Assembly (NCBI GenBank): GCA_034659475.1
Contig: JAYEHK010000155.1
Coordinates: 1,279-65,278 of the forward strand
Length of the DNA stretch: 64,000 nt
DNA from: Bacillota bacterium
GTDB lineage: Bacteria; Bacillota; Syntrophomonadia; Syntrophomonadales; Syntrophomonadaceae
Reading direction: 5' to 3'
The translations under genes were made by a program, and so were the position numbers. This document shows, piece by piece, positions 2,512 to 42,317 of the stretch (positions are counted from its first letter, which is position 1; each line of letters begins with the position of its first letter). The notes beneath the pieces were generated by a model that had not been told where the DNA came from, did no database searches, and saw only the letters and a list, made by a program, of their open reading frames with translations.

Positions 2512-3423
2512 ATGATTATTGATACACTTGGTCATATCCGAAATAATCTCTATAACCTGGGGCTGATGGAATGCCCCATCTTTCTTCTGGATGGGCCGGA
2601 ACCGGTTATCTTTGACGCAGGAGTAAGCTGCGCAGGAAACATTTATGTTGAGGCCATCCGTTCCATCCTCGGCGATCGGCAGCCATCTGTACTTTTCCTT
2701 ACGCATGCCCACTGGGACCATTGCGGAGCCGCCTCCCATCTGAAAAAAGCATTCCCGCAAATGAAAGTTGCAGCCCCACATCTGGCAGTGGACATTTTGA
2801 AACTACCCAACGCACTGGCCTTAATCAAAATGCTGAATGACGATACCACAGCCAGAATGAGTTCTAGTCTGGAATTGGATTCATCACTGCTGACAAATGA
2901 ATCCTTCTGTACCTTTGAGATAGATATTGAGCTTACGGATAATCAAATTTTGGATGTAGGAGAAGGCACGACTGTACAGGCACTAGCAACTCCAGGTCAC
3001 ACGCGGGACCACTACAGTTACTATTTACCGAAGGAAAAAATTCTGATAGCGGGAGAAGCAGGAGGGGTGTACTACGGCCCTGAAACGGTTTCCACTGAAT
3101 TTGTGTCTGATTACGATGCATATGTGGCTTCCCTTAAGCGTTTAGCTGCTCTCCCGACAGAGGTCTTTTGTCAGGGGCACTATCACCATCTGGTTGGCAC
3201 AGAAGAAATCAGCGCATTCTTCAAACGATCATTAAGCGAAACAATACATTTCAAGGAAAGAGTTTTAGAACTTCTTGATGAAGAATCCGGCTCCATAGAC
3301 CGTGTGATGGAAAGGGTGAAAACAGAAAGGTATGATGTTATCCCTGGCCTCAAGCAACCGGAAGTGCCCTATCTTTTGAATCTAAAGGCCCAGGTGACTC
3401 ATTTGGCTGGTAAGGAGAAATGA
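2512..3423 (+). CDS. MBL-fold metallo-hydrolase
   Basis: HxHxDH motif (LTHAHWDHCG), downstream TPGHT, and a GGAGGG RBS 6 nt before the ATG. Confidence 0.85.
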   Translation: MIIDTLGHIRNNLYNLGLMECPIFLLDGPEPVIFDAGVSCAGNIYVEAIRSILGDRQPSVLFLTHAHWDHCGAASHLKKAFPQMKVAAPHLAVDILKLPNALALIKMLNDDTTARMSSSLELDSSLLTNESFCTFEIDIELTDNQILDVGEGTTVQALATPGHTRDHYSYYLPKEKILIAGEAGGVYYGPETVSTEFVSDYDAYVASLKRLAALPTEVFCQGHYHHLVGTEEISAFFKRSLSETIHFKERVLELLDEESGSIDRVMERVKTERYDVIPGLKQPEVPYLLNLKAQVTHLAGKEK

Positions 3424-3531
3424 GAAAAGGTCAACAGAGGGACGTCAGGCTGTAACGAAAGGTAGGCCAGAAAATCTTGTGTAAAATATAACATCCCCTT
3501 GTCTTTCCTGTCTTTTTAGGAAAATAAATTT

Positions 3532-3560
3532 GAGGCCGCAATCCTTTGAATTGCGGCCTC
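3532..3560. terminator. Bidirectional hairpin terminator between the convergent MBL gene and the giant surface-protein gene
   Basis: GAGGCCGCAAT-7 nt-ATTGCGGCCTC, T-rich on both flanks (AAATTTATTTT on the minus side). Confidence 0.6.
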
Positions 3561-3627
3561 AATAAGTTTTGATTTTGCTTTAGAGCATACTATACAGGAA
3601 TCCCATTATTCAGAGAAAACCCTCAGC

Positions 3628-6600
3628 TTATTTCTCCTTTCCCTGCAAAAGCACTACTATCATCTTCGCGGCTTCCGCTCTGCTAGCATTTGCGGCAGGT
3701 GCAAAGGTGTTGTCACCTCTGCCGGAAATGATACCCGCCTGCTGCATAGCGTAAACTGCGCTTCTGGCATAGCTGGCAATTTGTGCATCATCAGCAAATG
3801 TTTTAGACTGATTGCCTTCTGGCAAGTTATATTTGGCCACACTATCCGCATAACGGGTAATCATTGTAGCCATATCCTGACGAGTGATGACATCATTCGG
3901 ATTGAAATGGCCGTTCGCTCCCTTGGCAACACCTACCTGTGACGCCCAGGCAACATACTTAGCATACCATGCGTTTGCCGGAACATCACTGAATTGGTCT
4001 GTCCCCTGCGGAAGCGTATTCCCGCTCATTTTTGCCAGAATGGTTACAAATTCAGCTCTGCTGATGCTGTCATTGGGGGCAAATGTAGTCTCTGTTTTCC
4101 CGTTTACAATGCCGCGATCGGCTAGATAGTAGATGTATCCTTCTGCCCAGCTGCCCTGAACGACATCCGTAAACTTGCTATCTGCCACAATATCGATGAC
4201 TTCACCGACTGCATACATCGACAGATGGGTGGTGGTAAATACAATGGCTTTTTTCACATTGTCATATCTGCTGCCTTCCATTTGGGTAATCGTTCCGTCA
4301 TCTGCAATATAGAAGGCTGCGAGCTTACTGATGTCCTCTCCTGCTTTTGGCGTGTAAGGCAGTTCAATGCTCAACTTGCCAAAGCTGGTCACAGTCTTGC
4401 CATCTGCGATGACCTTGATATCAAACACTGGTCTGTCGCCAACGATCAACTTAGCTGATTCGGACAGCTCTTCCGCTTTTACCTGTTTTATGGCAGCTTC
4501 AAGAGAAGACTTAATCTTCATCTCCGCAAGGACATCCTCACCAAAGACGAGGTTTGCACCATTGCCATTTATGGTTAAGGTCTTTGCCTTGTTTATTTCG
4601 GTTGCCTTCAGTTTTACGTTGTCGGTACTGTCCGCATTCTTGATGAGGTCAGTCTTGGCTACTGCAGAAGAACCTCCGCCGCTACTGCCTCCGGTTGAAG
4701 CACTGGTTATAGTAATGGTTTTGGTACCGGAGATTCCCGAACCGTCATTGGCCATTGCCTTAACGGTTACCGTTCCAACCCCAGTTCCAGTTACTAAACC
4801 GCTTGCACTGATGGTCGCGTTGCCCGTCCCGTTTTCCACACTCCAGGTGACGGTGGCGTCCGTCGCGTCTGCGGGTAAAACTGTGACGCTCATTTGTAAA
4901 GTGCTTCCGTTTACCACACTTGTTGCATCACTGGCAGCGCTTACGGTAATGGCGTTTACTTTACCTGTTATTACGGCCGCGTTGACGGTTACACCAATGC
5001 TGGTGGTCAGGTCTACGTTACCGGTATTTACTACTCCGCCAGGCAAAGTAACCGTTCCGTTTACATTGAAGCTCTGTTCGGTTGTTGTGCTTACATCGTA
5101 GCTTGAATTAGCTACATCCCAGTTTACGCTAGCACTCACATTTCCTTGGTCGGTGACCATGGTTACAGTTGCGGGGAGTCCAAGGGCCTCCGCTGTTTTG
5201 GCGGTGCCATTGGCAATTCCGGTAGTCGCTGTCGGCGCTGTGATGCTTGCCAATACGCTATCAGCGCTACCTGTGGCGGTCTGCGCTATATTTCCTGCCA
5301 TATCGGTGGCAACAATTGTGATCTCACCAATGCTGTTGGCTGTAAAGCTTGCGGTATAGGTATCTGTACCCGCTTGTTTTTGCATCGGGTAGGTCGCAGA
5401 GCCTCTGGTCATTACCACGCTGTAAATGCCGCTTAGCACATCGGTCACGTCGGTAGAAACGGTAACTGTGTTGCCTGCCAGCATGGCTGACGTTTTGTCT
5501 GCGCCAAAAGCAGGTGCCGTTCTGTCCACCTTTACGGTCAGACTGTTGGCTGTTAAATTGTAATCATTCGTATCTTGAAGCTTTGCATTGATGACATAAG
5601 TACCTTCATCTGTAATGGCAGTTACATCAACCGGGCTGCTGGTATAAGTTTTGCTTGTCCAATCACCATTATCAACATTGTATTGCATTTTGGTTGGTAT
5701 GAAATTAGTCAGGCCCGTGGCTGTCAATGCAACAGGTACTGAGTCGCAACTCCACCAACCTCTTGTGTCTGGTACTGATGTAGTGAGTGTCACACTTCCG
5801 CTCGCAGGCTCCTCATTGGCAACCGTTAGTGCGTACGTTTTTGGCTGTGCTCCTGCACCTTCAGGTGCAACCGTCACTTTAAAGGTGTTGCTGCCGATTG
5901 CCAGCGGCAGGGTATAGGCAAGCGCGCCTGTTTCCTCTGCGAGGACTGTATCGGCGGCATCCTTTAGCATCACTTTGGCATTCGGATTAGCCGAGATGGC
6001 GGTTATGTTAGTGGATTTCAAACTGTTTGCACGTAGATCTGCATAGCTTGTTGTATCCTTATCGAAGCCTACCCCGACTCCAGATGCAGCCAATATTTGC
6101 AGGTCAGCGTTCATGGAATCCGCGGTCGCACTAAAATAGTGGGCTTCCACATCCGCACCCAGCGTGTCAAACAGAAAGGTCTTACTGATTACTGCCTCAC
6201 TGCCTAACGTGACCAGTCCCTCCGCCGTATTCGACAAGTATTGGGTTCTGATGATATTGCCGCCCTTATCCAGCAGGTTTACGGCAACATTACCGTTGGT
6301 TACAGCTGCCATGGCAAGATTCTGCAGGATCAGCACTGCGGTGGTTGCTGTAGCCGAATTCGACTGTTTCACGTCAACCTTAATGGCGTTTCCGCTGTTA
6401 CGCTGCACCAGATTTTCACAAAGAATGGTGCTGAAATTGTTTTCGCCTACAAACTCAGCCAGCTCTTTATCCGAGCTGTCTACAACCCACGCCTTGGCAT
6501 ACAGCGTGACTCCGTTGGCTGGTATTTCGTCTTTTCCTTTTCCTAAAAGATATGCCTTGATATCAAAGCTTAGATTTGTGATATAGGCACCGTTGTCAAT

Positions 6601-9600
6601 CAGCGATAATTCGCCAGGATCCGTAATGGTAACAATGGGAACCACTTGAGTCCCTGCAGTATAGGCAGAATTATCGTAAAATCCCAGTTTTACTGTTTTA
6701 CCGCTGGTGTTTAGCTTATAGTCACTGCTGTTATACAACGTCACTGCAAACTCCCGTTGACCCTCCTGCTCCTTTACGGTACTAATCTTAGAAATGCCCA
6801 CATCAGCTACCGCCAAAGGCAATGTTTCGCTGCCAGTCATATCTACAGTTGTACCACCAAAAGTGGCTGTACCGCTGTATGGTAAATCTGCAATGTTTTC
6901 AGGCACACTATAGTTTGCAAGCAGCGTGTTGCTTGTACCAGGTAAAATCTTGAGATTATCAAAGGTTTTACTCTCCGTACCATATGCTATAGTAACGCTG
7001 GTAATTAAGTCTTTCCCCTGATTTTGCACGGTAAAAGCGATTGGCATGATAAAGCCTGCCATAATCTCGGTATAGTTGAAGTCTGCCGCTGTAATTTCTG
7101 CTTTATTCTGATAGGTTTCGGTTGCGGTAAACATCTTGCTTTCGGTCTTGGGCACCATAATTGTGGTGTCCCCACTGGTTATTGTGTCAAATTCATTTTT
7201 GCTTTCAGTCCCTAAGATAATAACCTTTACTTCGTCGGTTGCAGGATTTGATACATACGCATCAAAGCTGTCTATGACAGTTTTATCAGTTGTATCAGTT
7301 TTTCCAGGCATTTGAGCAACGTCAATAGCCGCTGATGTAAAGGTAAGTTGGTTGTCATCTACTGTTTCCTGCACAAATTTAATTGCCTTTAAGGAGTCGC
7401 TTCCAGTAGCAGCATCAGGTTCTACCCATAAGATGGAGAGGTTTTTGAAATCTTTATTCGCTGCGCTGGTGTTTACAAACTTGAAGTTGCCACCGATATT
7501 GTTCCCGCTTGACACGGAAGACAAGCTATCAATGAAATCTTCTTTAGGACTGCCGTCATTACCAAAAGTGGCTAGACGAATATCGGATTTTTCTCCATCA
7601 ATTTTGTTCCAGGCAAGCATAAATCTTTCATTACCGCTAAATTCAGCAACGGTTAGCTGGGGATTTTGATCCGCTGTGATATCGTTGGTCAAACGAACGT
7701 TATTTACGCTCTCGCCACTACTTCCAACAACCCCATACACTACCTCGTAGCTACTGGCATCTCTTGTTCCGCTGGTATCAATGATGTAAGCAATGGCCGC
7801 AGTACCGTCAGCGGTCATCGCCGCTTTTAAGCCTACTACACTGCCATTTACACCGTTGTAAAGCGTCCTGGTTTCGTCTTCCGGACTCCACTGGCTGCCA
7901 TCATAAATACGATAAACAATGGTGTCTTTGCCGCTGAAGTCAGTAGGATTGGAAGCATCCCCGGCATACACACTACGCCATACCGCAATCGCTCGGCTGC
8001 CATTTGTGGCAACCACCGGCGCCATATCTGGCGTGCTGTTGTTCGTCAGTCTTTCGGTTGTCCATGCGCTGCCCTTGTAAATACTCGCATAAACCTCGGT
8101 GTTGTTAATCATCATAGACATTTCGGGAGCTGTTAGTTCATCACCAGCATTTTTGTCTATCTTATCAGTCAGACTTACCCATGCAGAGATCGCCTGACTA
8201 TTGTTGCTGGCAAAGGACAGCTGGGAATCGCCAAAGCTTGCAGCATCTGTGTTAATCTTCCCTTTGTCAGCATAGCTGCCACTTTCCTTCACTGCATAGT
8301 TTGCGGTAGTATCCCAAACATCAGGACTGCCGTTATCGGATAAGTACACCATCATCGTGCCATCATCTGCAATGAGTGGGTTGGCGTAAGGATAGGCATT
8401 TGATTGTAGTGTGCTCGGTGCAAGATTGTTTGTATCCAGCGACAATGCACTTATGGTTCCGCCCGGTGTACTCCAAACACGGGAATAATCGTTAAGATAC
8501 GCTCGACTCTCCAGCGCAGGTGCCTCGGAAATAACAACCGAATCTTGTCCCGTGGCTGCAGCATATGACTGTGCAGCCAGACTCATATTATCCATCGTTA
8601 GCATATCCCCGGTGGTCTCTTCCCAATAGACATTAATTTTGTCCCAGTTGCGATAGGTCCATTCTTTGTCAAAGCTTGCAGAGGCAAATGTTGCCTGATA
8701 GGAAATAAATAGTAATTTGGCAACAAACTTGATCCCAACCTGCCCTGCCAGGTTAAGCCTTGAACCTGATAAGGCTTTTTCGGTTTGGTTATAACCTGCT
8801 GCCTGATTTGCTATCTCGGTATCTAAATAATTGCGATTCAGGAACTGATTTTCATTTTCAAGCACTAATTGTCCAAAAACGCCTACCTTTAGCGCAATAA
8901 CAGTATAATCAATACCCAGGCCGCCAAAAGCATAGATATATGCCTTAATTCTGAGGTTGGTTAAATAGTCTGTGACACTTTCTTGGTCTTCTTGCCAATA
9001 GTAATCAATGCAATCTTTTTCGTCAGAGTATTGAACAGAAACCGGTTCATACAGCCTATGCGCATCAAATTCCAAACGCACGGCAGCACCCAGCTTAATT
9101 TCAAAGGTGCAAGGAACAGTCCCTACCCACTGTGTGTCAGTGTGGGAGAATTGATAGCTAATGCCGGCTCTGATCCCGCCCCCGATTGGACGTATTTCCC
9201 ATTTTTCCGTTTCGAAATTATAGATAATTTTGCAGCTAAAGTATCCGCCCACTTGATATTTGACCGAATTGCCGCTGCTATCATCAAGTATACTTTCAAT
9301 GTCGTCTTTTAGACCGCTGGCAAGTTCACGTGACTTGGCAAAGCCAGCTTTGCCTGTCCCGTTGGTTTTCACCTCATCATCATCCAACATCATTGAAAAA
9401 CTGTCTTCTTGGGGACCCATGTCCATTACATCGTCCCCGGGGTTGAGTTGCAATAACCCCTTAAACACTGTAGGATCTGCTGTGGGCGCCAGCATTAACG
9501 AAAAGTTGTCATTGCCAAACTGTATGCCGCTTGCAAAGTCGAGGGCACTTTGGGTGAAATTGTCTTCGGCCTCAAATGAAGTACCGGCTTTAATACTTCT

Positions 9601-12600
9601 CTGCATTTCTGCTTGGAAGTTGGCATTGACATCAGGGCTTGCTGATATATTTTCAACGGATAGCATATTACGAATCGAATACGCTTGCAAAGTAGAGTTA
9701 TACAGTGACCCATCCTCATTAAATAACTTAACAGTAAGCTTGCCCCTGCCTTTCTTGTTAATCCAAATATTGCTTTCATCAATCATTATTTGGTGCTCGG
9801 TCAGCAGCATGGTAGCAAAAGGATACTTAAAGGTTTTGTAATTTTGCCCGGCTAGTGCTGCACCCTTTTCGTTTAAGATTGAGATCGCTGCATTTGTGTC
9901 CTCTAAAGGTGTGCCCCACCAAAGTGCCTGGGTGTCAATTCTGATCTTTGGGGTTTGAGCATTGAGTCCAATGTTTCCGGTGGCATTTTTAATGCTTTCC
10001 AGGCGTCCGCTTTTCTTGTAGCGGTCTAAATGTTGCGTGCTGAAAAAAGGCTTATTCTGATCGACTGTTGGTTCAAGCGTTACTATGCTCTCACCAAAAC
10101 GCAGCACATCTGCACCGGAAAGGTTACCCGAAAACTTGATAATTTGGAGCTGATATTCATCATTCCCAAAGTGAAACTCAAACACATAGTCAATTTTATC
10201 TGTGGCATTTACGCTTGAAGCCAGGGTTTCGCCTGCTTCCGTGGACCAAAAGTTGTTAACATCAAACGCTTGCCTATAAAAACCTTTGGTCGGGGTGATT
10301 GTCATGGGTTTTTTCCAAGCGTCTTTATTATCGGAAATCTCACTGCTTTCGCAATAATTTCCGTTTTTATATACGCCAGCACGGATCGTAACCGTACCGA
10401 TGTAGGGAGTGCCGTCAGGATTTTTGAAGTTTAGGTCCAGCTGGGCGGCTTTCCGCAATACAAAGTTATTGATTGGATAAAGCTGTCCCTTGGAGCCGTC
10501 ATTTTCACCTGATAGCAGATTGACTTTATAAATCGTTCCCATATAGATACTACCGTCAAAGATGCTTTTGAGCTGCACATTGCCTTTAATCCCGTTCGGC
10601 TCATAAATGGCAACCGCACCCTTGTCATCGCTATTCACGGTTTTCTCTATACCATCCCCATTGGTGTAAATAAATTCAGTTAAGGCGAGAGGCATCGCCT
10701 GGAACAGGTAGAGTTTGTCCGTTAAGGTTTTAACCTCTAACCCTAAGGTATCGGTCATTCTTGATAATTTATGGGTTGCATTAATGGTGGCTGTTCCATC
10801 CTTTAAGCCGGCCAGTATAAAGTTGGCATCCGGCATATAAGATGGGAAATTATAATCTTCAATATTATTGTATCCGCCACCTTGAGAGTAGTTAATGTTG
10901 GCCACTTTGGAATCACTTGCTTGCCATTCAACCTGGTCAGTCACCAGACCATAGGAATAGTCACCATAGTTAATGGAGAGCTTGTTGGTCAAAGAAATGT
11001 TTCTTTCCAAAGCGACGATATCGGCGCTGGTCATGCCTGCTATGCGTCCTTCATTATCCATGGTAAAGGTCGAAGCGGGTTGTTTATCCACCCATATTTT
11101 CATGGCCTCCGCATCATAGACATGCAACACAAAGGAATCATAGCTGTAGGCTTCATCACCCGTGTTTTTGATTTTGGCAGTGACCGTATACACATCCTTT
11201 AATTTGCCGCTTACATCAGCAAAATTAAGGGTATAGCTTCCACTTGCAGCCTGACTGGTGGTAACGGAAGCCCCGTTTTTAGCCACTGCAAACTCAAAAT
11301 CACAGCCGCCTGTGGTGTCGTTTACGTTGGTTGACGCCCAATTTACAGCGAGTGATTGTGCCGTATCCAACATATAATAGCTGGCCGGGCGTTCGATCTT
11401 AACACTGGCAGGAGGGGATGCAACGATAATATTCCCCACAGTTTCCACCTTTTCGCCAGAAACATAAGGATTTTGCGTGCTGATTTTAACGGTATAGGCG
11501 GGCTCCGTACCACTTGAAAGCTTGGTCAATTGCTCCCCAGGAATGGTAAAGGAGTTGGCATTTACCGCTGTATTTGCCGTATAGCCTGGTGTTTTTTCTG
11601 CCAAAGCTGCTACGGTTGCGTAGTTGCCCTCATAAAGTTCGACGCTAAAACTGGTATCTTTTTGGGGTTCATCCTGTTGGTTAATGTAGATTACATTGGT
11701 GCTCCACATCACTTGCACAGGCACACCCATTTTGGTCGTGATCAACTTGCTCACGGATAGAGAGGGCTTACCCAGGTATACTTTAACAGTGAATTCTTCT
11801 GATGTCTTGATTACATCCTTGGTACCATCGTCCATGCCATTCATTGCAACCAGGTTAAATGTAACCTTTCCAACCCCCACCGGCGTAATCTCACCAGAGG
11901 TGGCCGAAATCGTAGCAATATTCGAATTATTGGAAACCCACTTGAAATCTTCGGTTTCGTGAAAAGTGGCGTTTCCGCTGTATGTATAAGTCAGCTTGAC
12001 GAATTGTTCATCCCCTATATTAAGCACCTTGGACGTAGGATGGTTAATTGTCATCTGATCTGCAGTAACAAGTATCAGCGGAGCTTTCGTAAATTCAACA
12101 CTTTTATTTGCTTCCATAATCGGTCTAAATACCGTGGGCGCTTCATCGGTAGCCATATAAAAAAGCATTTTGTAATCCCCACTGGCAGGCAGGTCAAACT
12201 CTGCAGTCAGCTTGTCCACTGCATCTGTAATATAGAGGGGTATTTTGGTTCTCCCATTGTCATAGGACGCATAAAGACGTTGGACCGTGAACTTATCTTC
12301 GACTTGATCAGTATAGCTGATAAGCCAATTATTTTGTTTTTCACCAACGGTTAACGTTCCTTCCACGGCGTTTTTGTTTTGGAACAGATTGACTTCCAAC
12401 TTGCCTTTGGTTTCGCCTGGCGAATAAGCCCCGGCTAAGGCATTGCCCTCTGCATCTTGTAAAGTCATACCGGTCATACTGTCAATCTCATTATAGTTAA
12501 AGGTCGTAGCCAGGCGTTCAACGCCGCTTGGGAAAGTATATGCGCTAACTCTTTTATTGGATGTATCATAGGTATCCCCCGATATTCTGACCGACCAGAG

Positions 12601-13287
12601 GATTTCTGAAGCCTGGGGCGGAATATCATACAGGAATGTAACTTTTGAGTGGGTAAGCGGTTTTGTGCTGTTATATACGCTTTTCGCGGTGTATTCTACG
12701 CCTTTATCGTCTTGCATGGTTAAGGTAAGCTCGGTCTTCTGCACAATAGGCTCGCTGAAGGTAACAACGATCGGAACCTGCTCACCTGCTTTAAAGGTTT
12801 TATTCGGCGAGCTTATCTCTTTCACTGTAGGATATTCATCATCTGAAACACGGGCATAAATGTCATAAGAGAAAGCGGAATCCGAAGTAAGATTGAACTG
12901 TCTGGTTGTACTAGGAGCTCTGAATGTCAGCCAAAGCGCATCTCCTTTACCAATGACTTGGCGATCTGGCTCCGATAAATTAAAGGGAACCACGGCGGGC
13001 GGCGTCTTCAGATCTATCGTAAGCGGTGTAAACGCACCGCTGGCATTTTTGGGAAATTGGTCTGTAAATTTGAACGTATCAGGATCATAATTGGTGCTCA
13101 GCGAATAGGTAGCTTTTATTGGTGCTGTAAAATTCAACTTCGTTGCCGCATTGTCAAGGAAAGCATTTCTTACAATTTCCGGCATCGTTAACTTCACACC
13201 CATGAGAAGCTCACCTTCACTTAGTCTATCACGGAACTCATATGCGCCATAGTCTATCACCAGTCTAGTAGAACTAGGTGTTTTCAT
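3628..13287 (-). CDS. Giant (3219 aa) cell-surface protein with Ig-like/Big_2 and cadherin-like beta-sandwich arrays, a beta-propeller-like repeat region and three C-terminal SLH domains; no N-terminal signal peptide
   Basis: Uninterrupted 9.66-kb ORF. The C-terminal ~185 aa contain 3 SLH repeats (FTDV..WAEGYIYYLADRGIVNG; FSDVPANAWYAKYVAWASQVGVAKG; FADDAQIASYARSAVYAMQQAGIISG). There is a Big_2-like segment (VTVLPADATDATVTWSVENGTGNATISASGLVTGTGVGTVTVKA). The N-terminus MKTPSSTRLVIDYGAYEF lacks a hydrophobic core. Confidence 0.85.
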   Translation of the reverse strand: MKTPSSTRLVIDYGAYEFRDRLSEGELLMGVKLTMPEIVRNAFLDNAATKLNFTAPIKATYSLSTNYDPDTFKFTDQFPKNASGAFTPLTIDLKTPPAVVPFNLSEPDRQVIGKGDALWLTFRAPSTTRQFNLTSDSAFSYDIYARVSDDEYPTVKEISSPNKTFKAGEQVPIVVTFSEPIVQKTELTLTMQDDKGVEYTAKSVYNSTKPLTHSKVTFLYDIPPQASEILWSVRISGDTYDTSNKRVSAYTFPSGVERLATTFNYNEIDSMTGMTLQDAEGNALAGAYSPGETKGKLEVNLFQNKNAVEGTLTVGEKQNNWLISYTDQVEDKFTVQRLYASYDNGRTKIPLYITDAVDKLTAEFDLPASGDYKMLFYMATDEAPTVFRPIMEANKSVEFTKAPLILVTADQMTINHPTSKVLNIGDEQFVKLTYTYSGNATFHETEDFKWVSNNSNIATISATSGEITPVGVGKVTFNLVAMNGMDDGTKDVIKTSEEFTVKVYLGKPSLSVSKLITTKMGVPVQVMWSTNVIYINQQDEPQKDTSFSVELYEGNYATVAALAEKTPGYTANTAVNANSFTIPGEQLTKLSSGTEPAYTVKISTQNPYVSGEKVETVGNIIVASPPASVKIERPASYYMLDTAQSLAVNWASTNVNDTTGGCDFEFAVAKNGASVTTSQAASGSYTLNFADVSGKLKDVYTVTAKIKNTGDEAYSYDSFVLHVYDAEAMKIWVDKQPASTFTMDNEGRIAGMTSADIVALERNISLTNKLSINYGDYSYGLVTDQVEWQASDSKVANINYSQGGGYNNIEDYNFPSYMPDANFILAGLKDGTATINATHKLSRMTDTLGLEVKTLTDKLYLFQAMPLALTEFIYTNGDGIEKTVNSDDKGAVAIYEPNGIKGNVQLKSIFDGSIYMGTIYKVNLLSGENDGSKGQLYPINNFVLRKAAQLDLNFKNPDGTPYIGTVTIRAGVYKNGNYCESSEISDNKDAWKKPMTITPTKGFYRQAFDVNNFWSTEAGETLASSVNATDKIDYVFEFHFGNDEYQLQIIKFSGNLSGADVLRFGESIVTLEPTVDQNKPFFSTQHLDRYKKSGRLESIKNATGNIGLNAQTPKIRIDTQALWWGTPLEDTNAAISILNEKGAALAGQNYKTFKYPFATMLLTEHQIMIDESNIWINKKGRGKLTVKLFNEDGSLYNSTLQAYSIRNMLSVENISASPDVNANFQAEMQRSIKAGTSFEAEDNFTQSALDFASGIQFGNDNFSLMLAPTADPTVFKGLLQLNPGDDVMDMGPQEDSFSMMLDDDEVKTNGTGKAGFAKSRELASGLKDDIESILDDSSGNSVKYQVGGYFSCKIIYNFETEKWEIRPIGGGIRAGISYQFSHTDTQWVGTVPCTFEIKLGAAVRLEFDAHRLYEPVSVQYSDEKDCIDYYWQEDQESVTDYLTNLRIKAYIYAFGGLGIDYTVIALKVGVFGQLVLENENQFLNRNYLDTEIANQAAGYNQTEKALSGSRLNLAGQVGIKFVAKLLFISYQATFASASFDKEWTYRNWDKINVYWEETTGDMLTMDNMSLAAQSYAAATGQDSVVISEAPALESRAYLNDYSRVWSTPGGTISALSLDTNNLAPSTLQSNAYPYANPLIADDGTMMVYLSDNGSPDVWDTTANYAVKESGSYADKGKINTDAASFGDSQLSFASNNSQAISAWVSLTDKIDKNAGDELTAPEMSMMINNTEVYASIYKGSAWTTERLTNNSTPDMAPVVATNGSRAIAVWRSVYAGDASNPTDFSGKDTIVYRIYDGSQWSPEDETRTLYNGVNGSVVGLKAAMTADGTAAIAYIIDTSGTRDASSYEVVYGVVGSSGESVNNVRLTNDITADQNPQLTVAEFSGNERFMLAWNKIDGEKSDIRLATFGNDGSPKEDFIDSLSSVSSGNNIGGNFKFVNTSAANKDFKNLSILWVEPDAATGSDSLKAIKFVQETVDDNQLTFTSAAIDVAQMPGKTDTTDKTVIDSFDAYVSNPATDEVKVIILGTESKNEFDTITSGDTTIMVPKTESKMFTATETYQNKAEITAADFNYTEIMAGFIMPIAFTVQNQGKDLITSVTIAYGTESKTFDNLKILPGTSNTLLANYSVPENIADLPYSGTATFGGTTVDMTGSETLPLAVADVGISKISTVKEQEGQREFAVTLYNSSDYKLNTSGKTVKLGFYDNSAYTAGTQVVPIVTITDPGELSLIDNGAYITNLSFDIKAYLLGKGKDEIPANGVTLYAKAWVVDSSDKELAEFVGENNFSTILCENLVQRNSGNAIKVDVKQSNSATATTAVLILQNLAMAAVTNGNVAVNLLDKGGNIIRTQYLSNTAEGLVTLGSEAVISKTFLFDTLGADVEAHYFSATADSMNADLQILAASGVGVGFDKDTTSYADLRANSLKSTNITAISANPNAKVMLKDAADTVLAEETGALAYTLPLAIGSNTFKVTVAPEGAGAQPKTYALTVANEEPASGSVTLTTSVPDTRGWWSCDSVPVALTATGLTNFIPTKMQYNVDNGDWTSKTYTSSPVDVTAITDEGTYVINAKLQDTNDYNLTANSLTVKVDRTAPAFGADKTSAMLAGNTVTVSTDVTDVLSGIYSVVMTRGSATYPMQKQAGTDTYTASFTANSIGEITIVATDMAGNIAQTATGSADSVLASITAPTATTGIANGTAKTAEALGLPATVTMVTDQGNVSASVNWDVANSSYDVSTTTEQSFNVNGTVTLPGGVVNTGNVDLTTSIGVTVNAAVITGKVNAITVSAASDATSVVNGSTLQMSVTVLPADATDATVTWSVENGTGNATISASGLVTGTGVGTVTVKAMANDGSGISGTKTITITSASTGGSSGGGSSAVAKTDLIKNADSTDNVKLKATEINKAKTLTINGNGANLVFGEDVLAEMKIKSSLEAAIKQVKAEELSESAKLIVGDRPVFDIKVIADGKTVTSFGKLSIELPYTPKAGEDISKLAAFYIADDGTITQMEGSRYDNVKKAIVFTTTHLSMYAVGEVIDIVADSKFTDVVQGSWAEGYIYYLADRGIVNGKTETTFAPNDSISRAEFVTILAKMSGNTLPQGTDQFSDVPANAWYAKYVAWASQVGVAKGANGHFNPNDVITRQDMATMITRYADSVAKYNLPEGNQSKTFADDAQIASYARSAVYAMQQAGIISGRGDNTFAPAANASRAEAAKMIVVLLQGKEK

Positions 13288-14429
13288 TAATGGAAAAGGA
13301 CCCGGCCCGGCCCGGCCACTGGATTGTAATATCGCTCTAATGCTTTTTCCAAAAATATTTCCCCATCAGCAGCCATACCGGGAAAGAGATTCGGTGCCGA
13401 GGAGCTATATAGGGTATAATCATAGGTTTTGCTCATGGTTATGGGAATCAGTTGACTTGACTTTCCGTTGGAAAACAGACATCCGTTAAGGTCTTTCAGG
13501 CGCAAATAGCCTAAGGTAGCCGAACCATTCCAGCGTTCACTTTTCACATCGGGCAAATAAAAGCTTGCATATTTAGGAGAAGTCCCGGTCATGGTTATGG
13601 AGCCTAGTTCTTTAGAAGTCCCCAACATCCCCGGCAGATATTCCTGTGAAAAGGTAGCTTGGCTATTATATTGGCCCCCAGTTATATTATAAGTGATGGA
13701 TACTTGGCCGTTATAGGCATTAGCAACAGCGCTGCAGTTCACAACTGGAACGGGAGCAACCGCAGCAGCAGTATACATCGCTTGTGCAGGGGCAGCAGGT
13801 TCAAGGTTTATCCCCTCGGTCGTAAGCTGATGTTCTAGGCTCGAAAGCATTTTCACATGTTCATCCGTTATCTGTATATTATTCTTGAGGAAATTCTCCT
13901 CAACAAATTGCATGTACGTTTCAAAGTCGATTAACTTGGCGATAAAGGCAAGGCTAACGGCTTGGTCGTCTACTTTGACCTCCCTGTCCAGATCAACATC
14001 GGGGGCATTCACAATGTCCCGCATTTGGTCCAGAGTATAAAGCTTGCCCTCCATCTCTATTTTATAGCTAAGACGGTTGCCTTTTTCGTCAATGATCCCC
14101 ATCGAAATCATTGATTCGAACATAGCGTCGGCTTTATCAGCCCCGTACTCTTTAGAAAGTGCGGCAATAAGCTGCTCTTTTGCATCGGGATTATATGAAT
14201 CCTCCACAAGTGATTTTGCGGCGATTTCAGGCTCTTCTTGGTCAGACAGTGGGATCGACTGCTCTCCTGCGTTGGGATTATATATCCCCTGCGTAGGTGA
14301 ATTAGCAGCAATAGTCTGCTCACTTGTGTTTGGATCATATGGCTCCTGTGCAAATGCATTTAGCGGTAATGTAGAAAGCAACATAATACATACCAGCAGC
14401 ATAGATATGAATTTTTTGAAATTTCTCAC
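13287..14429 (-). CDS. Secreted 380-aa protein (signal peptide plus YNPN/EQ repeats); possibly the detached N-terminus of the giant SLH protein
   Basis: GTG start preceded by an AAGGAGAAAC RBS. Signal peptide MRNFKKFISMLLVCIMLLSTLPLNAFA. Three degenerate (Y[DN]PN..EQ) repeats. The stop overlaps the next ATG as TAATG. Confidence 0.7.
   Translation of the reverse strand: MRNFKKFISMLLVCIMLLSTLPLNAFAQEPYDPNTSEQTIAANSPTQGIYNPNAGEQSIPLSDQEEPEIAAKSLVEDSYNPDAKEQLIAALSKEYGADKADAMFESMISMGIIDEKGNRLSYKIEMEGKLYTLDQMRDIVNAPDVDLDREVKVDDQAVSLAFIAKLIDFETYMQFVEENFLKNNIQITDEHVKMLSSLEHQLTTEGINLEPAAPAQAMYTAAAVAPVPVVNCSAVANAYNGQVSITYNITGGQYNSQATFSQEYLPGMLGTSKELGSITMTGTSPKYASFYLPDVKSERWNGSATLGYLRLKDLNGCLFSNGKSSQLIPITMSKTYDYTLYSSSAPNLFPGMAADGEIFLEKALERYYNPVAGPGRVLFH
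13301..13317. repeat. Perfect pentanucleotide repeat (CCCGG)3CC, 11 nt upstream (gene sense) of the stop/start junction of the two surface-protein ORFs
   Basis: Plus strand cccggcccggcccggcc; minus strand GGCCGGGCCGGGCCGGG, encoding ...VAGPGR... of the upstream ORF. Confidence 0.9.
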
Positions 14430-14685
14430 TTTAAGTTTCTCCTTTCGCTTATAATGAACGAATCCTTTGCTTTGGCTCTTACCCCGAAAGCGTCACCTCC
14501 AACTTTTCTCGGTCTATCGTTTATTTACTTGACCTAACAGATCGCCAGTTTGTATTATGTTAATTTATAAATCTTGCCAAAACACAACATCTGCGTGAAA
14601 TGCCGTTATTTTCGCTATGGAATGTAACATTAGCTGTTATAATGGATAATGTGTGCAGAATGACATTAGGGTGATAGGTAACAGG

Positions 14686-15405
14686 ATGAAAATTGCTATT
14701 TGCGATGATGACAAGCAGGAGCTTTGGGAAATCATTCGGCTTGTGGAGGAATATTTTAGCGCTAGCCTGACGGATGAGAAAATAGAAGTGTGCAGATTTG
14801 AAAGCAGTTTAGCACTGAACAAACAGCTTGAAGGCGGCAAGCATTTTGATGTTTTTCTTCTGGATGTCATTATGCCGACTATAAACGGCATTGCGCTTGC
14901 CGAAAAGATACGAAAAACAGATCAGGTTGCAAAAATAATTTTTTTGACTACATCGCCAGAATTTGCAGTGAAGTCTTATTCTGTAGATGCATTTCATTAT
15001 TTATTAAAGCCCATTGAAAAAGTCAAACTCTTTTCTGTTTTAGAAAAAGCCTGCAGTGATATTTGCAGCGACCTACAGCAATATATCGCTGTAAAAACAC
15101 AAAACAGTCTCACCAAGCTATTCTTCCGGGAACTAATCTATGTTGAGGTAATAGAAAAAACCGTATATTTTTATCAAAAAAGCGGGGTTACGATAAAAAG
15201 CAGCACTACGCTTTCTCAAGTTGAAGCTGTTTTACTAAAAGATAAACGTTTCATCAAGCCTCATCGCTCCTATATCGTCAACCTGGACTACATCAAGGAC
15301 CTATCACAGAAGGGCTTTACGACCACAAGCGACCTATTTATCCCTATAACAAGAAGTGCTTTCAAAGAAGTAAAACAGGTATATATCAAGCATTTATTTC
15401 ATTAG
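14686..15405 (+). CDS. LytTR-family response regulator (AgrA/VirR-like)
   Basis: Receiver domain (MKIAICDDD...DVFLLDVIMP) plus a LytTR DNA-binding domain (FIKPHRSYIVNLDYIKDL). The ORF track starts at 14653; the ATG at 14686 fits the family N-terminus. Confidence 0.9.
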   Translation: MKIAICDDDKQELWEIIRLVEEYFSASLTDEKIEVCRFESSLALNKQLEGGKHFDVFLLDVIMPTINGIALAEKIRKTDQVAKIIFLTTSPEFAVKSYSVDAFHYLLKPIEKVKLFSVLEKACSDICSDLQQYIAVKTQNSLTKLFFRELIYVEVIEKTVYFYQKSGVTIKSSTTLSQVEAVLLKDKRFIKPHRSYIVNLDYIKDLSQKGFTTTSDLFIPITRSAFKEVKQVYIKHLFH

Positions 15406-15429
15406 GAAGATTAATAAGAGGTAAAAAAC

Positions 15430-16698
15430 ATGTTGGATTATATAAGGTCTCTTCTTGCCTTTGTTTTCGCTATCAGTGTGATGTATATGCTCTTGGATTG
15501 TAAAATGAAACATAAGAGAACCCCCTATCTGTTGGGGTTTTACGTAACTGTCGTGCTAATTTGTGATGCGCTTATTTTACAAAAATGCGGGTATACATAT
15601 TTTATGGGACTATATCCCCTTCTTGTCCACTTTCCTGTATTTTTAGCATTTGTGTTTGTATCAAAGTTCAAACCCATCAAGGTATTTTTTGTTCTTTTGA
15701 CACTCGTCGCTTTAACCACGTCGTTTTCTTTGGTTGGACTTATTATTTCATATTTTTTTGACTCCAGCAGAGAAGTCGTGAACATTGTTTGCTATATCAT
15801 GTATCTACCCATAGGGTTTATTATTTACAAGTATATCCGTCCGTCATTTCTTTATATGATGCGTAACACAGATAAAGGTTGGTTAGGATTTTGCATTATA
15901 CCGCTTTCATACTCTGTGCTTATTTATTCTATCGGAATGTATAATTTGGACAAGGTGAGCATTGGACCCAATGTAAAGGATGCTGTGCTGCTCTTTATTT
16001 TGGTTTTTTCAGCTTATTTTCTGATTCTACGTTTGTTCAAACAAACCAGAGAACAGCTTACCCTGCAAAACGAACAGAATATATCACAAATGCAATTAGC
16101 CGCAGCACAGATACATTTGGAATCATTACAAGAATCACAAAAAAAAACGCTCATCTATCGCCACGATATGCGTCACCATCTGGATCTGATTAGCGCCTAT
16201 CTTACGGACAATAACCATGCAGCAGCACAAAACTATATTACAGAGGTCGAAGAAACCATTGAAGCCGCTACGGTTGAAACGTATTGCAACAATTACTCGG
16301 TTAACTTGATTCTGTCTTCGTGTATTGCGAAGGCCAGGAATGAACAAATTGCCGTTGAAACCCAAATCGATCTCCCAGAGAAGAACGCCGTAGCCAATAT
16401 GGACCTTTGCATGATTTTGGCCAATGCCATTGAAAATGGTATCAACGCATGCAAGTGTATTCCCCGTATAAACGACAGAACCTTGAAAATCGTCTGCAAA
16501 ACCAAAAACGATAAGCTCCTCATACAAATCACCAATAGCTTTGCAGGTACGGTCAGCTTTGTTAACGATATGCCGGTAAGCATGGAGGAAAATCATGGCC
16601 TGGGCACGAAAAGCATTGCAGCAGTGGCTAAGAAATACAACGGAGTGTATTCCTTCACCGCCGAAGATGGAGTCTTTACGACAAGCCTTTTCCTATAG
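15430..16698 (+). CDS. AgrC/VirS-type membrane sensor histidine kinase (GHKL ATPase, HPK10-like)
   Basis: About 6 N-terminal TM helices, an H-box (IYRHDMRHHLDLISAYL), an N-box (ILANAIENGINAC) and a G-box (NHGLGTKSI). It lies 24 nt after the LytTR regulator. Confidence 0.85.
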   Translation: MLDYIRSLLAFVFAISVMYMLLDCKMKHKRTPYLLGFYVTVVLICDALILQKCGYTYFMGLYPLLVHFPVFLAFVFVSKFKPIKVFFVLLTLVALTTSFSLVGLIISYFFDSSREVVNIVCYIMYLPIGFIIYKYIRPSFLYMMRNTDKGWLGFCIIPLSYSVLIYSIGMYNLDKVSIGPNVKDAVLLFILVFSAYFLILRLFKQTREQLTLQNEQNISQMQLAAAQIHLESLQESQKKTLIYRHDMRHHLDLISAYLTDNNHAAAQNYITEVEETIEAATVETYCNNYSVNLILSSCIAKARNEQIAVETQIDLPEKNAVANMDLCMILANAIENGINACKCIPRINDRTLKIVCKTKNDKLLIQITNSFAGTVSFVNDMPVSMEENHGLGTKSIAAVAKKYNGVYSFTAEDGVFTTSLFL

Positions 16699-16778
16699 CA
16701 AAAGAGAACCGCCCCTTGATAGATATAGTCATGTCTTTGGTCTAAGGATATACCCATCCTGAAAACGGTTATAAAATA

Positions 16779-16825
16779 TGTAAAAAGCTGCATGTTATCG
16801 CCAAAACGGCTCTTCATGCAGCTTT
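16779..16825 (-). terminator. Hairpin terminator after the oxidoreductase/CbiT-like operon
   Basis: Minus strand AAAGCTGCATG-20 nt-CATGCAGCTTT followed by TTTACATATTTT, 40 nt after the stop at 16866. Confidence 0.5.
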
Positions 16826-16865
16826 AATATATTATCTTATGTCAGCGGTATCAACCGCAGCGTGA

Positions 16866-17783
16866 TTACGATTCTTCGACACTTCTGGCAGAGATCAGCC
16901 ATGGAGCTGGGAATGGCTCCATCAAGTTTTTACTGTTAACGCGTGATACCTCTATATGGATTGCTTCCGTGCGCTCCAAACCGTTTTCCCGAAACAAAGC
17001 CGGAAGAGATGTCAGGATCTCGAAGTCCAACGTGTAGATCACAAAATCCATGGCTGGATTGATGGCCTTCAGACTCTTTATTTCACTGCCGATCCTTGGA
17101 GAACCCACAATAAACGCAACGTCAGGCACCGGCAGCTTATCCGGGATACCGGTTTCAAGAGACTCCACGATGATTACGTTGTTGAGACCAAATTTGTCAA
17201 CATTACATTTCATAGTCTCTCTATCCCTGCGGTCATATTCCACAGCAATGACACTGCCCTCAGCAGCAATCATGGCCGCCTCCACCGCGATGCTCTCCCC
17301 CGAGATGATACATATATTATCCTGATCCCTCAGATTGAGTTTATTCATTATAACAGCCCGAACTTCCCTGCACACATACTGAACAGATCCGCAGGAGAAC
17401 CGACTGTTCTCCATACCTATATGATAATTGGTTGCAGCGTTGGGATTCAGAATCAACATTGCTGCAGAAGCATTGATCCCGCGATCTATCATGTCTGATA
17501 GCTTGTCGTGCTTGATCTCTCCGGATGGATCAGAGCCCTCATTGTACCAGATATCGCAATCCCCCAGTTCCGCATTCCACATATCGTAGAATATTTCCGG
17601 ATGTCCGGCGTCCGTAAAAACCAGCACTGCACGATTGCTCATAATGGTCGGAATCAGGTTCTTATTCTTCCCTGTAATGTCCAGCATTTTCAGTTTTGCC
17701 AGATTGACCGGGGCGTTTTTTGAAAAATACTGGAGCCAGGATAAAATGACCTCATTGGTAAACATCGTCTGTTCCACAGGCAA
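16866..17783 (-). CDS. CbiE(C-terminal half)/CbiT-like protein (precorrin-6 methyltransferase fold) with a degenerate SAM motif
   Basis: Aligns by eye to CbiT (REVRAVIMNKLNL..., VIAVEYD, PDVAFIVGS, final PAPWLI). The GxGxG motif I is replaced by ICIISGESIAVEAA. The likely start is the GTG at 17777, 8 nt after AAGGAGG. It lies 63 nt after the oxidoreductase beta subunit. Confidence 0.55.
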   Translation of the reverse strand: MPVEQTMFTNEVILSWLQYFSKNAPVNLAKLKMLDITGKNKNLIPTIMSNRAVLVFTDAGHPEIFYDMWNAELGDCDIWYNEGSDPSGEIKHDKLSDMIDRGINASAAMLILNPNAATNYHIGMENSRFSCGSVQYVCREVRAVIMNKLNLRDQDNICIISGESIAVEAAMIAAEGSVIAVEYDRRDRETMKCNVDKFGLNNVIIVESLETGIPDKLPVPDVAFIVGSPRIGSEIKSLKAINPAMDFVIYTLDFEILTSLPALFRENGLERTEAIHIEVSRVNSKNLMEPFPAPWLISARSVEES

Positions 17784-41966: not shown

Positions 41967-42317
41967 TGGTGGAGGCGAGGGGAATCGAACCCCTGTCCGA
42001 AAGATAGACCAGCCCAGTATCTCCGAGCGCAGTCCGTGATTTAATTTCACCCTTTGGACGTCCACGGACGAACTTCCTGAGGCTATCCCCGATTAAATTC
42101 CCCTTTTAGCCCCTCGAGAAAAAAGGCTAAAGGGTACCCTCGCTATGTGACGCCCTGCACTAAACCGCGAGGTTATCTAGCCGGACGAGCAGCCTTAGGC
42201 TGCTAGTGCAAAATTATCTTCTGCAGTTATATTTGTTTTTCACCTTTTTAACGAGCTGGCGACAACTCGGCTCGCTGCTCGACCCACCTTATCCCCCGTC
42301 GAAACCAGTACGCCCCC
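41967..42317 (-). ncRNA. ssrA: tmRNA (ssrA)
   Basis: 5' GGGGGCGTACTGGTTTCGACGGGGG... and 3' ...GGGGTTCGATTCCCCTCGCCTCCACCA (tRNA-Ala-like ends). Internal tag reading frame ...GCAGAAGATAATTTTGCACTAGCAGCCTAA = AEDNFALAA* (plus ~42195-42224). It lies immediately downstream of smpB. Confidence 0.9.

What the first reader, a model, noticed from the sequence alone, without database searches (positions are those of the whole stretch)
13280..13320. Signal peptide and SLH anchor sit on two ORFs separated by a frame change 11 nt after a (CCCGG)3 repeat
The 380-aa ORF has a classical Sec signal peptide but no anchor. The 3219-aa ORF has three C-terminal SLH wall-binding domains, but its N-terminus (MKTPSSTRLVIDYGAYEF) has no hydrophobic core. 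The two ORFs meet as TAATG. Just upstream lies a perfect pentanucleotide repeat (minus strand GGCCGGGCCGGGCCGGG). The downstream frame is open across the tract (GGC CGG GCC GGG CCG GGT CCT TTT CCA TTA ATG). Deleting exactly one 5-nt unit gives ...YYNPVAGPGPFPLMKTPSS..., a single ~3.6k-aa secreted, wall-anchored protein. Three explanations fit: a slipped-strand ON/OFF switch for a giant adhesin, a fixed +5 duplication that split the gene, or an assembly error.
Basis: seen in the sequence. Interest (0 to 1): 0.8.

Follow-up and report, generated by a model that had tools for sequence, protein, structure and literature searches.

The report
Giant surface-protein gene split by frameshift
One very large gene for a secreted, cell-wall-anchored surface protein has been cut in two by an extra 5-base copy in a short repeat, which is an ordinary, probably recent inactivating mutation and not a demonstrated on/off switch.

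Summary
On the minus strand, 13317..13301 reads GGCCGGGCCGGGCCGGG (3.4 perfect 5-nt units). Eleven nt later the 380-aa signal-peptide ORF (13287..14429) stops, and the 3219-aa SLH ORF (3628..13287) starts, in TAATG. Removing one unit gives one 3598-aa ORF.

Relatives show that this was one gene. 91 of 150 family representatives carry both parts in one protein. All 7 related loci in reference genomes (Syntrophomonadaceae and allies) have one open frame from signal peptide onward. ORF B has no signal peptide and no GGAGG-type ribosome-binding site. The overlap holds no slippery heptamer.

An independent Logan assembly of SRR26901930 is 100% identical over 7143 nt, so an assembly artefact is unlikely.

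My best reading is a real +5 slippage duplication (2 to 3 units) that frameshifts the gene. It is recent, because 3219 downstream codons are still intact.

An evolved phase-variation switch is not excluded but has no support:
- Three units is below the cut-off of 5 or more used for pentanucleotides.
- No relative carries such a tract.
- No length variants could be examined, because reads are not available here.

This is an ordinary kind of event and of low interest. Read-level counting of tract lengths would settle it.

The parts
13301..13317 (-). Perfect pentanucleotide tract GGCCGGGCCGGGCCGGG (3.4 units of GGCCG; CCCGG on the + strand). It is the inferred site of a +5 tandem duplication.
   Evidence: It is the only such tract in 64 kb, and deleting one unit fuses the ORFs.
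13287..14429 (-). ORF A (380 aa; NCBI MEA1962144.1, 'hypothetical protein'). It is the 5' part of the ancestral gene: Sec signal peptide, a helical N-terminal module, a Calx-beta-like domain and the start of the variable cassette. Its last 5 codons (RVLFH) are out-of-frame read-through.
   Evidence: Homology to the N-termini of the giant relatives is shown. Calx-beta is detected in relatives, and the AF2 model is confident for fused residues 230-335.
14349..14429 (-). Signal-peptide coding region (MRNFKKFISMLLVCIMLLSTLPLNAFA), with the GTG start at 14429 and the Shine-Dalgarno AAAGGAG at 14439-14445.
   Evidence: The N-terminus is conserved in relatives (KVRNFKK...LPLN.LAQ).
3628..13287 (-). 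ORF B (3219 aa; NCBI MEA1962143.1, 'S-layer homology domain-containing protein'). It is the 3' part of the ancestral gene and has no signal peptide and no GGAGG-type SD.
13288..13365 (-). The 78-nt stretch in which both reading frames are open. The frame change must lie inside it.
   Evidence: It contains no X_XXY_YYZ slippery heptamer.
12925..13406 (-). Lineage-specific (orphan) inter-module cassette, fused residues ~342-500. The frameshift lies 34 codons into it. In the closest relatives a conserved module of the same length, of the 'NLNGW...GGEIKG' type, sits here.
   Evidence: BLAST and tblastn homology stops at fused 341 and resumes at ~500. No significant hit to any relative's cassette was found.
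3631..4176 (-). Three C-terminal SLH wall-binding domains (ORF B residues ~3038-3212).
   Evidence: Pfam PF00395, E=1e-34, 3 stretches.
3530..3562 (-). Strong intrinsic-terminator-like hairpin (15 pairs plus a T run) after the gene.
14653..16698 (+). Divergently transcribed LytTR-family response regulator (14653-15405) and HATPase_c_5 histidine kinase (15430-16698). They are conserved neighbours of this gene family and likely regulators (inference).
   Evidence: The same neighbours occur at L004, L006 and L008.

Best explanation
ORF A and ORF B are the two halves of a single ancestral gene. That gene encodes a ~3600-aa secreted, SLH-anchored giant surface protein: signal peptide, helical module, Calx-beta-like domain, variable cassette, many Ig-like modules and three SLH domains.

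A replication-slippage event duplicated one 5-nt unit in a short GC-only tract (GGCCGGGCCGGG to GGCCGGGCCGGGCCGGG). This shifted the frame so that translation stops 5 codons later.

In the sequenced (majority) allele, the cell can export only a 380-aa N-terminal fragment. The 3219-aa remainder has no export signal and no proper ribosome-binding site. At best it is made at low level by termination-reinitiation at TAATG and stays in the cytoplasm, so the wall-anchored protein is effectively OFF.

The lesion is recent, because the 9.6-kb downstream frame is still intact. In principle it can revert by loss of one unit. It is best described as an ordinary slippage frameshift (an incipient pseudogene or loss-of-function variant), not as an evolved switch.

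Shown: the sequence anatomy, the single-gene ancestry, and the agreement of two assemblies. Inferred: that the lesion is the 5-nt duplication, its recency, and the fate of the products.
For: (1) Single-gene ancestry.
- An exhaustive HMMER search with the fused N-terminal 1200 aa found 346 relatives, mostly 3000-3700 aa.
- 91 of the 150 listed carry the ORF A module and the ORF B module in one polypeptide, in the same order. The spacing is 143-200 aa in the closest ones, against 177-199 in the fused query.
- Seven loci were pulled from GTDB reference genomes by ORF B-module similarity alone (Syntrophomonadaceae, Syntrophomonas, Syntrophomonadales, other Bacillota and Oscillospiraceae). All 7 have one open frame running from a homologous signal peptide through both modules.

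(2) ORF B cannot stand alone as a surface protein. It has no hydrophobic N-terminus and no GGAGG/AGGAG motif upstream. Its ATG is simply the first start codon in a frame that opens only 78 nt upstream.

(3) The repeat is the lesion.
- It is the only pentanucleotide tract in 64 kb and lies inside the 78-nt window, about 2e-4 by chance.
- Removing one unit restores a 3598-aa ORF.
- Homology to an Oscillospiraceae relative continues in the ORF A frame up to ...FLEKALER (13332), past the A5 and T5 runs. This weakly argues against a homopolymer lesion.

(4) The sequence is real. The Logan assembly of SRR26901930 is 100% identical over window 10287-17429.

(5) Inactivating lesions are common in this family. 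These loci were chosen because they looked truncated.
- L002/L003: a frameshift plus a TAG replacing the SLH Trp.
- L004: a small frame-shifting indel at AAAATCAAACACGGG.
- L005/L006: a TAG at a position where two relatives (P0005, P0132) have Tyr.
- L007: two in-frame stops.
- L008: many frameshifts.

(6) Three units is below the >=5 cut-off used for pentanucleotide phase variation (PMC5953494). No relative carries such a tract.
Against: - No reads were available, so minority 2-, 4- or 5-unit alleles cannot be excluded.
- The cassette that contains the junction has no detectable homolog, and AF2 could not model it (pLDDT ~30).
- A single lesion in an otherwise intact 10.8-kb gene, sitting on a reversible repeat, is also what a phase-OFF allele would look like.
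- Both assemblies come from the same read set.
Confidence: 0.62

Rival explanations
1. The tract is an evolved contingency locus. Slipped-strand mispairing changes the unit number at high frequency, so the giant SLH-anchored protein switches ON (2 or 5 units) and OFF (3 or 4 units) within the population. The assembled consensus happens to be the OFF phase.
For: - The unit length is not a multiple of 3, the tract is perfect, and 2 or 5 units restore the frame.
- The target is a giant surface protein, the typical class of phase-variable gene.
- The downstream 3219 codons are intact, as expected if the gene is regularly ON.
- The tract is 100% G+C in a 44% G+C gene.
Against: - There are only 3.4 units. 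The field's cut-off for pentanucleotides is >=5, and opa alleles with 1-4 units are classed non-variable (PMC5953494).
- No pentanucleotide tract occurs in ~120 kb of related loci, and no other candidate contingency tract occurs in the 64-kb window.
- The tract lies 1.1 kb into the gene, not near the 5' end.
- Two assemblies both give 3 units, and the 28.8-kb Logan contig runs straight through the site.
- A 2-unit fused protein is absent from a 15-billion-protein collection.
Confidence: 0.15
2. It is a sequencing or assembly artefact. The real genome has 2 units and one intact 3598-aa gene.
For: - The gene would then be like all its relatives.
- GC-only, partly palindromic tracts can be troublesome for sequencing.
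- Both assemblies derive from the same run.
Against: - Two independent pipelines (the NCBI MAG contig of 71 kb and the Logan k-mer assembly) are 100% identical over 7143 nt including the tract.
- The 17-nt tract is shorter than typical assembly k-mers.
- Insertion of a clean 5-nt unit is not a usual short-read error type (general knowledge).
Confidence: 0.07
3. It is a functional two-product arrangement. Either ORF A is a separate secreted partner and ORF B is translated by termination-reinitiation at TAATG, or a programmed -1 ribosomal frameshift in the overlap makes the full-length protein at a set ratio.
For: - The stop and start overlap as TAATG.
- The ORF B frame is -1 relative to ORF A, and both frames are open for 78 nt.
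Against: - The overlap holds no X_XXY_YYZ slippery heptamer.
- There is no stable local structure (DNA fold z=0.65).
- All 7 unbiased relatives, and 91 of 150 representatives, are single-frame genes.
- ORF B lacks any export signal although it carries SLH wall anchors.
- The stop 5 codons after the shift is what random out-of-frame reading gives.
Confidence: 0.05
4. The frameshift is real but lies elsewhere in the 78-nt window, as loss of one base from the A5 or T5 run at ~13345-13356. The pentanucleotide tract is then a coincidence.
For: - Adding one base at A5 also gives an open fusion (...FLEKSIRAILQSSGRAGPGPFPLM...), derived from the frames.
- One-base homopolymer indels are the commonest frameshifts, and they break relatives L002 and perhaps L004.
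Against: - The chance of an unrelated perfect 3.4-unit pentanucleotide tract falling in this 78-nt window is about 2e-4.
- Similarity to the L015 relative continues in the ORF A frame through ...LEKA.., beyond both homopolymers. This rests on 4 residues and is weak.
Confidence: 0.03

Closest known systems
Frameshift-disrupted (split) genes, or incipient pseudogenes, created by short tandem duplication through replication slippage
   Same: - Two adjacent same-strand ORFs in different frames match consecutive parts of one protein in relatives.
- The lesion is one extra repeat unit.
- The downstream part lacks its own start and export signals.
- The same family shows other independent nonsense and frameshift lesions.
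   Different: Nothing essential differs.
Neisseria opa genes: (CTCTT)n pentanucleotide repeats in the signal-peptide coding region, giving translational phase variation of surface proteins
   Same: A pentanucleotide unit lies inside the coding region of a surface protein, and the unit number sets the reading frame. Some lengths are ON (2 or 5 here) and others OFF.
   Different: - opa tracts that switch have >=5 units (5-24 in the PhasomeIt survey), and alleles with 1-4 units are scored non-variable (PMC5953494). Here there are 3.4 units.
- The tract is 1.1 kb downstream of the start.
- It is not conserved in relatives.
- No length variation has been observed.
SLH-anchored giant surface proteins and adhesins of Bacillota (large multi-Ig-domain proteins with a C-terminal SLH triplet; recalled from general knowledge)
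   Same: An N-terminal Sec signal peptide, a long array of Ig-like/Calx-beta/Big_2 modules and three C-terminal SLH domains.
   Different: - Most of the protein matches no curated family. NCBIfam gives nothing, and Pfam covers only SLH, Big_2 and Big_4.
- C-terminal anchors vary among relatives (SLH, Flg_new, AIR9-type Ig).
- No member has been characterised, as far as the tools show.

Membership tests
Split gene / frameshift pseudogene | Both ORFs align to consecutive parts of a single protein in relatives | tested here: met
   91 of 150 representatives and 7 of 7 GTDB loci have both modules in one frame, in the same order, with similar spacing.
Split gene / frameshift pseudogene | Adjacent ORFs on the same strand in different frames, with a minimal edit restoring one ORF | tested here: met
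   The ORFs overlap as TAATG, the ORF B frame is -1 relative to ORF A, and deleting 5 nt gives a 3598-aa ORF.
Split gene / frameshift pseudogene | The downstream piece lacks its own translation and export signals | tested here: met
   There is no GGAGG/AGGAG upstream and no hydrophobic N-terminus (max KD 0.94, against 2.6 for ORF A).
Split gene / frameshift pseudogene | The lesion is real in the DNA rather than a sequencing or assembly error | tested here: inconclusive
   Two independent assemblies are 100% identical, but both come from run SRR26901930. Reads could not be inspected.
SSR-mediated translational phase variation (contingency locus) | An intragenic simple repeat whose unit length is not a multiple of 3, with some repeat numbers in frame | tested here: met
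   The unit is 5 nt, and 2 or 5 units give a full-length ORF.
SSR-mediated translational phase variation (contingency locus) | Repeat number at or above the empirically mutable threshold (>=5 for pentanucleotides) | tested here: not met
   There are 3.4 units. The cut-off, and the non-variable status of 1-4-unit opa alleles, come from PMC5953494.
SSR-mediated translational phase variation (contingency locus) | Observed variation in repeat number among cells, reads, strains or orthologs | not testable with these tools
   - Only one sample carries this sequence.
- The fused allele is absent from the protein collection.
- There is no read access.
SSR-mediated translational phase variation (contingency locus) | The repeat is conserved in homologs, or other contingency tracts exist in the genome | tested here: not met
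   No pentanucleotide tract occurs in ~120 kb of related loci, and it is the only such tract in the 64-kb window.
Programmed -1 ribosomal frameshifting | A slippery heptamer X_XXY_YYZ in the overlap, with a downstream stimulatory structure | tested here: not met
   No canonical heptamer occurs in 13379..13289. The local fold is no better than shuffles.
Programmed -1 ribosomal frameshifting | The two-frame arrangement is conserved among relatives | tested here: not met
   All 7 related loci are single-frame.
Secreted SLH-anchored cell-surface protein | An N-terminal Sec signal peptide | tested here: met
   It is present on ORF A only: MRNFKKFISMLLVCIMLLSTLPLNAFA|QE. It is conserved in relatives.
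Secreted SLH-anchored cell-surface protein | A triplet of SLH domains | tested here: met
   PF00395, E=1e-34, 3 stretches at the C-terminus of ORF B.
Secreted SLH-anchored cell-surface protein | Demonstrated surface localisation or adhesin function | not testable with these tools
   The organism is an uncultured MAG, and no experimental data were found.

The most novel reading that the evidence does not exclude
The (GGCCG)n tract is a working contingency locus in an uncultured, environmental, Syntrophomonadaceae-like member of the Bacillota. Unit gain and loss would switch a 3600-aa S-layer-anchored surface protein between a full-length wall-bound form (2 or 5 units) and a secreted 380-aa N-terminal fragment (3 or 4 units). 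This would give population-level surface heterogeneity, for example against phage or for partner attachment in syntrophic consortia.
Probability: 0.13. Interest if true: 0.45.

Novelty: new member of a known kind. Interest (0 to 1): 0.2.

Why it matters
Practically, the NCBI records MEA1962144.1 and MEA1962143.1 should be read as one disrupted gene. The large family of uncharacterised ~3000-3700-aa surface proteins in Syntrophomonadaceae and allied Bacillota has a defined N-terminal architecture: signal peptide, helical module, Calx-beta and a swappable cassette.

Biologically, it adds one more case of loss of a giant surface protein by a trivial slippage event. It would only become interesting if read data showed real length heterogeneity, which would extend repeat-driven phase variation to an environmental anaerobe.

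Tried and rejected
1. Orthologs sharing this junction, to compare repeat number. All of the following failed, so the cassette is unique to this MAG:
   - an exact-pattern scan of JGI metagenomes;
   - peptide-seeded scans of GTDB genomes and JGI metagenomes with the junction module;
   - a word-index protein search with the fused junction, which returned only ORF A itself and, oddly, not ORF B.
2. Exact look-up of the repaired 3598-aa protein among 15 billion proteins: absent.
3. Residue-level homology across the junction. BLAST and phmmer of the cassette against 150 relatives and 7 loci gave nothing significant beyond the 'SKTYDY' motif. A motif resemblance seen by eye (YEFRDRLSEGELL against FREYVREGLVTHF-type motifs) did not hold up statistically and is not used.
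4. AlphaFold2 of fused residues 215-575 with a 15-row alignment. The Calx-beta-like domain is confident, but the cassette has pLDDT ~30, so there is no structural test of the repair. The second job was not spent.
5. Hidden homology in other frames of the cassette DNA (tblastn of relatives): none.
6. -1 PRF heptamer scan: none. Hairpin propensity of the tract: not above shuffles.
7. A literature search for the run accession: nothing.
8. The apparent enrichment of breaks just after module A in relatives (L002, L005, L007). I rejected this as evidence because those loci were selected for starting there.

Full report
**1. Checking the observation.** The minus strand at 13317..13301 reads GGCCGGGCCGGGCCGGG. 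Tandem Repeats Finder reports period 5, 3.4 copies and 100% matches. Eleven bases later (TCCTTTTCCAT) comes TAATG. Its TAA (13289..13287) ends a 380-aa ORF (13287..14429, minus strand), and its ATG starts a 3219-aa ORF (3628..13287).

ORF A starts at a GTG with AAAGGAG 9 nt upstream. It opens with a classical signal peptide, MRNFKKFISMLLVCIMLLSTLPLNAFA|QE. ORF B carries three C-terminal SLH domains (Pfam E=1e-34) plus Big_2 and Big_4. Its first 70 residues have no hydrophobic core: the maximum hydropathy over 15 residues is 0.94, against 2.6 for ORF A.

The ORF B frame is open for only 78 nt upstream of its ATG (13365..13288), so the frame change must lie there. Deleting one 5-nt unit yields a single 3598-aa ORF reading ...YYNPVAGPGPFPLMKTPSS.... 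Five units would also be in frame.

The tract is the only repeat with unit >=5 and >=3 copies in the 64 kb. About 0.15 are expected per window, which is roughly 2e-4 for one inside the 78-nt stretch.

**2. Where the sequence comes from.** ORF A and ORF B are deposited as separate CDSs of a MAG labelled 'Bacillota bacterium'. They are MEA1962144.1 (hypothetical protein) and MEA1962143.1 (S-layer homology domain-containing protein).

The Logan assembly of run SRR26901930 contains a 28.8-kb contig that is 100% identical to window 10287..17429, tract included. Two assembly pipelines therefore agree, although both start from the same reads.

**3. One gene or two?** An exhaustive HMMER search with the N-terminal 1200 residues of the repaired protein found 346 relatives, most of them 3000-3700 aa.
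- In 91 of the 150 listed, the ORF A module (fused 80-350) and the ORF B module (fused 520-1200) lie in one polypeptide in the same order. The gap between them is 143-200 aa in the closest relatives, against 177-199 in the repaired query.
- As an unbiased test, I pulled loci from GTDB reference genomes using only ORF B-module similarity. The seven loci come from Syntrophomonadaceae, Syntrophomonas, Syntrophomonadales, a 'Desulfosporosinus' MAG, two Bacillota MAGs and an Oscillospiraceae MAG. All seven have one open frame that begins with a homologous signal peptide (…KVRNFKK…LPLN.LAQ…) and runs through both modules.

The ancestral state is thus a single gene. ORF B also has no GGAGG-type ribosome-binding site. 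The overlap holds no canonical -1 slippery heptamer and no unusual local structure. The two-ORF layout is therefore a lesion, not a design.

**4. Where exactly is the lesion?** Homology to the closest relatives (50-66% identity) stops at fused residue 341 and resumes at about 500. Between these points the relatives carry a conserved ~158-aa 'NLNGW…GGEIKG' module. The window instead carries an unrelated ~160-aa cassette with no detectable homolog anywhere. The frameshift lies 34 codons into this cassette.

AlphaFold2 modelled the preceding Calx-beta-like domain confidently but not the cassette (pLDDT ~30).

An alternative repair is to add one base at the A5 or T5 run at ~13345-13356. It also gives an open fusion. 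However, it would leave the perfect pentanucleotide tract as a ~2e-4 coincidence. Weak similarity to the Oscillospiraceae relative also continues in the ORF A frame through ...FLEKALER, beyond both homopolymers. I therefore take the +5 duplication (2.4 to 3.4 units) as the lesion.

**5. What kind of event?** The downstream 3219 codons are intact, so the lesion is young, or it is regularly reverted. The evidence bearing on an evolved switch is as follows.
- Surveys of phase-variable loci use >=5 units as the cut-off for pentanucleotides. They score opa alleles with 1-4 units as non-variable (PMC5953494). Here there are 3.4 units.
- None of ~120 kb of related loci has a pentanucleotide tract, and the window has no other candidate contingency tract.
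- The tract lies 1.1 kb into the gene.
- Independent inactivating lesions are common in this family:
  - L002/L003 have a frameshift next to a T5 run, plus a TAG replacing the SLH tryptophan.
  - The syntenic closest homolog L004 has a small frame-shifting indel at AAAATCAAACACGGG.
  - L005/L006 have a TAG at a position where two relatives (P0005, P0132) have tyrosine in a Calx-beta motif.
  - L007 has two in-frame stops.
  - L008 is heavily fragmented.

  These loci were picked because they looked truncated, so their frequency is not meaningful. They do show that loss of this protein is tolerated.

The most economical reading is an ordinary slippage frameshift that is the majority allele in the sampled population.

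**6. Consequences (inferred).** The OFF allele can export only a 380-aa fragment: signal peptide, helical module, Calx-beta-like domain, and 34 cassette residues plus RVLFH. The 3219-aa remainder could at most be made at low level by reinitiation at TAATG. Lacking a signal peptide, it would not reach the wall, so its SLH anchors would be useless.

**7. Rivals.**

| Explanation | Probability |
|---|---|
| Slippage frameshift, majority allele (best) | 0.62 |
| Evolved phase variation | 0.15 |
| Assembly or sequencing artefact | 0.07 |
| Functional coupling or programmed frameshifting | 0.05 |
| Lesion at a homopolymer instead of the repeat | 0.03 |

Counting tract lengths in the reads of SRR26901930 would discriminate the first three at once.

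**8. Comparison with known systems and verdict.** Mechanistically this resembles opa-type pentanucleotide phase variation. It fails the repeat-number criterion and the conservation criterion for membership, and variation could not be tested. It meets every testable criterion of a frameshift-split gene, and of a secreted SLH-anchored surface protein once repaired.

It is a new instance of a well-known kind of event, and interest is low (0.2). The most novel reading not excluded is a real contingency locus in an environmental syntroph-like Bacillota (probability ~0.13, interest ~0.45 if true).

Noticed in passing
window 12925-13406 (-): The ~160-aa segment between the Calx-beta-like module and the first conserved Ig-like module is an orphan cassette. 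In the closest relatives (L009-L012) a conserved 'NLNGW…GGEIKG…FWGQASSTM' module of the same length sits there, with sharp homology boundaries at fused residues 341 and ~500. This looks like module replacement in a mosaic surface-protein gene.
   Followed up: partly
window 14653-16698 (+); L004 1764-3777; L006 1-1004; L008 1-731: A LytTR-family response regulator and an HATPase_c_5 (Agr/LytS-like) histidine kinase lie divergently upstream of the giant gene. The same neighbours recur at three related loci, which suggests a conserved regulatory pairing.
   Followed up: partly
L002 1082-1145 and 13228; L003; L004 7140-7180; L005/L006 2168; L007 2091 and 8097; L008: Several family members in other metagenomes are also broken.
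- L002: a frameshift next to a T5 run, plus TAG replacing the SLH Trp.
- L004: a small frame-shifting indel at AAAATCAAACACGGG.
- L005/L006: TAG at a position where two relatives (P0005, P0132) have Tyr; identical in two different assemblies.
- L007: two in-frame stops (TGA, TAG).
- L008: multiple frameshifts.
The loci were selected because they looked truncated, so no rate can be inferred.
   Followed up: partly
window 16139-16147 (+): An A9 homopolymer lies inside the HATPase_c_5 kinase gene next to the giant gene. It is one of only two 9-nt homopolymers in the window.
   Followed up: no
L005/L006 1967-1974; L012 3316-3323: G8 homopolymers lie inside the coding region of related giant genes. 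In L005 the run is ~200 nt upstream of the TAG stop. These are possible slippage-prone sites.
   Followed up: no
window 41967-42317 (-) and 40653-40784 (-): Rfam finds a full-length tmRNA (181.8 bits) and a group II intron D1-D4 match (81.1 bits) about 1.2 kb apart.
   Followed up: no
The word-index protein search with a query that was 74% identical in sequence to ORF B did not return ORF B (P0151), although that protein is in the collection. Absence of hits from that tool is therefore weak evidence.
   Followed up: no
L002 11959-13743: In this relative the SLH domain is not on the giant protein. It is on a separate downstream gene with its own signal peptide (MKNTIKAKLTALLIS…), itself interrupted by a TAG. 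Anchoring architecture therefore varies within the family.
   Followed up: no
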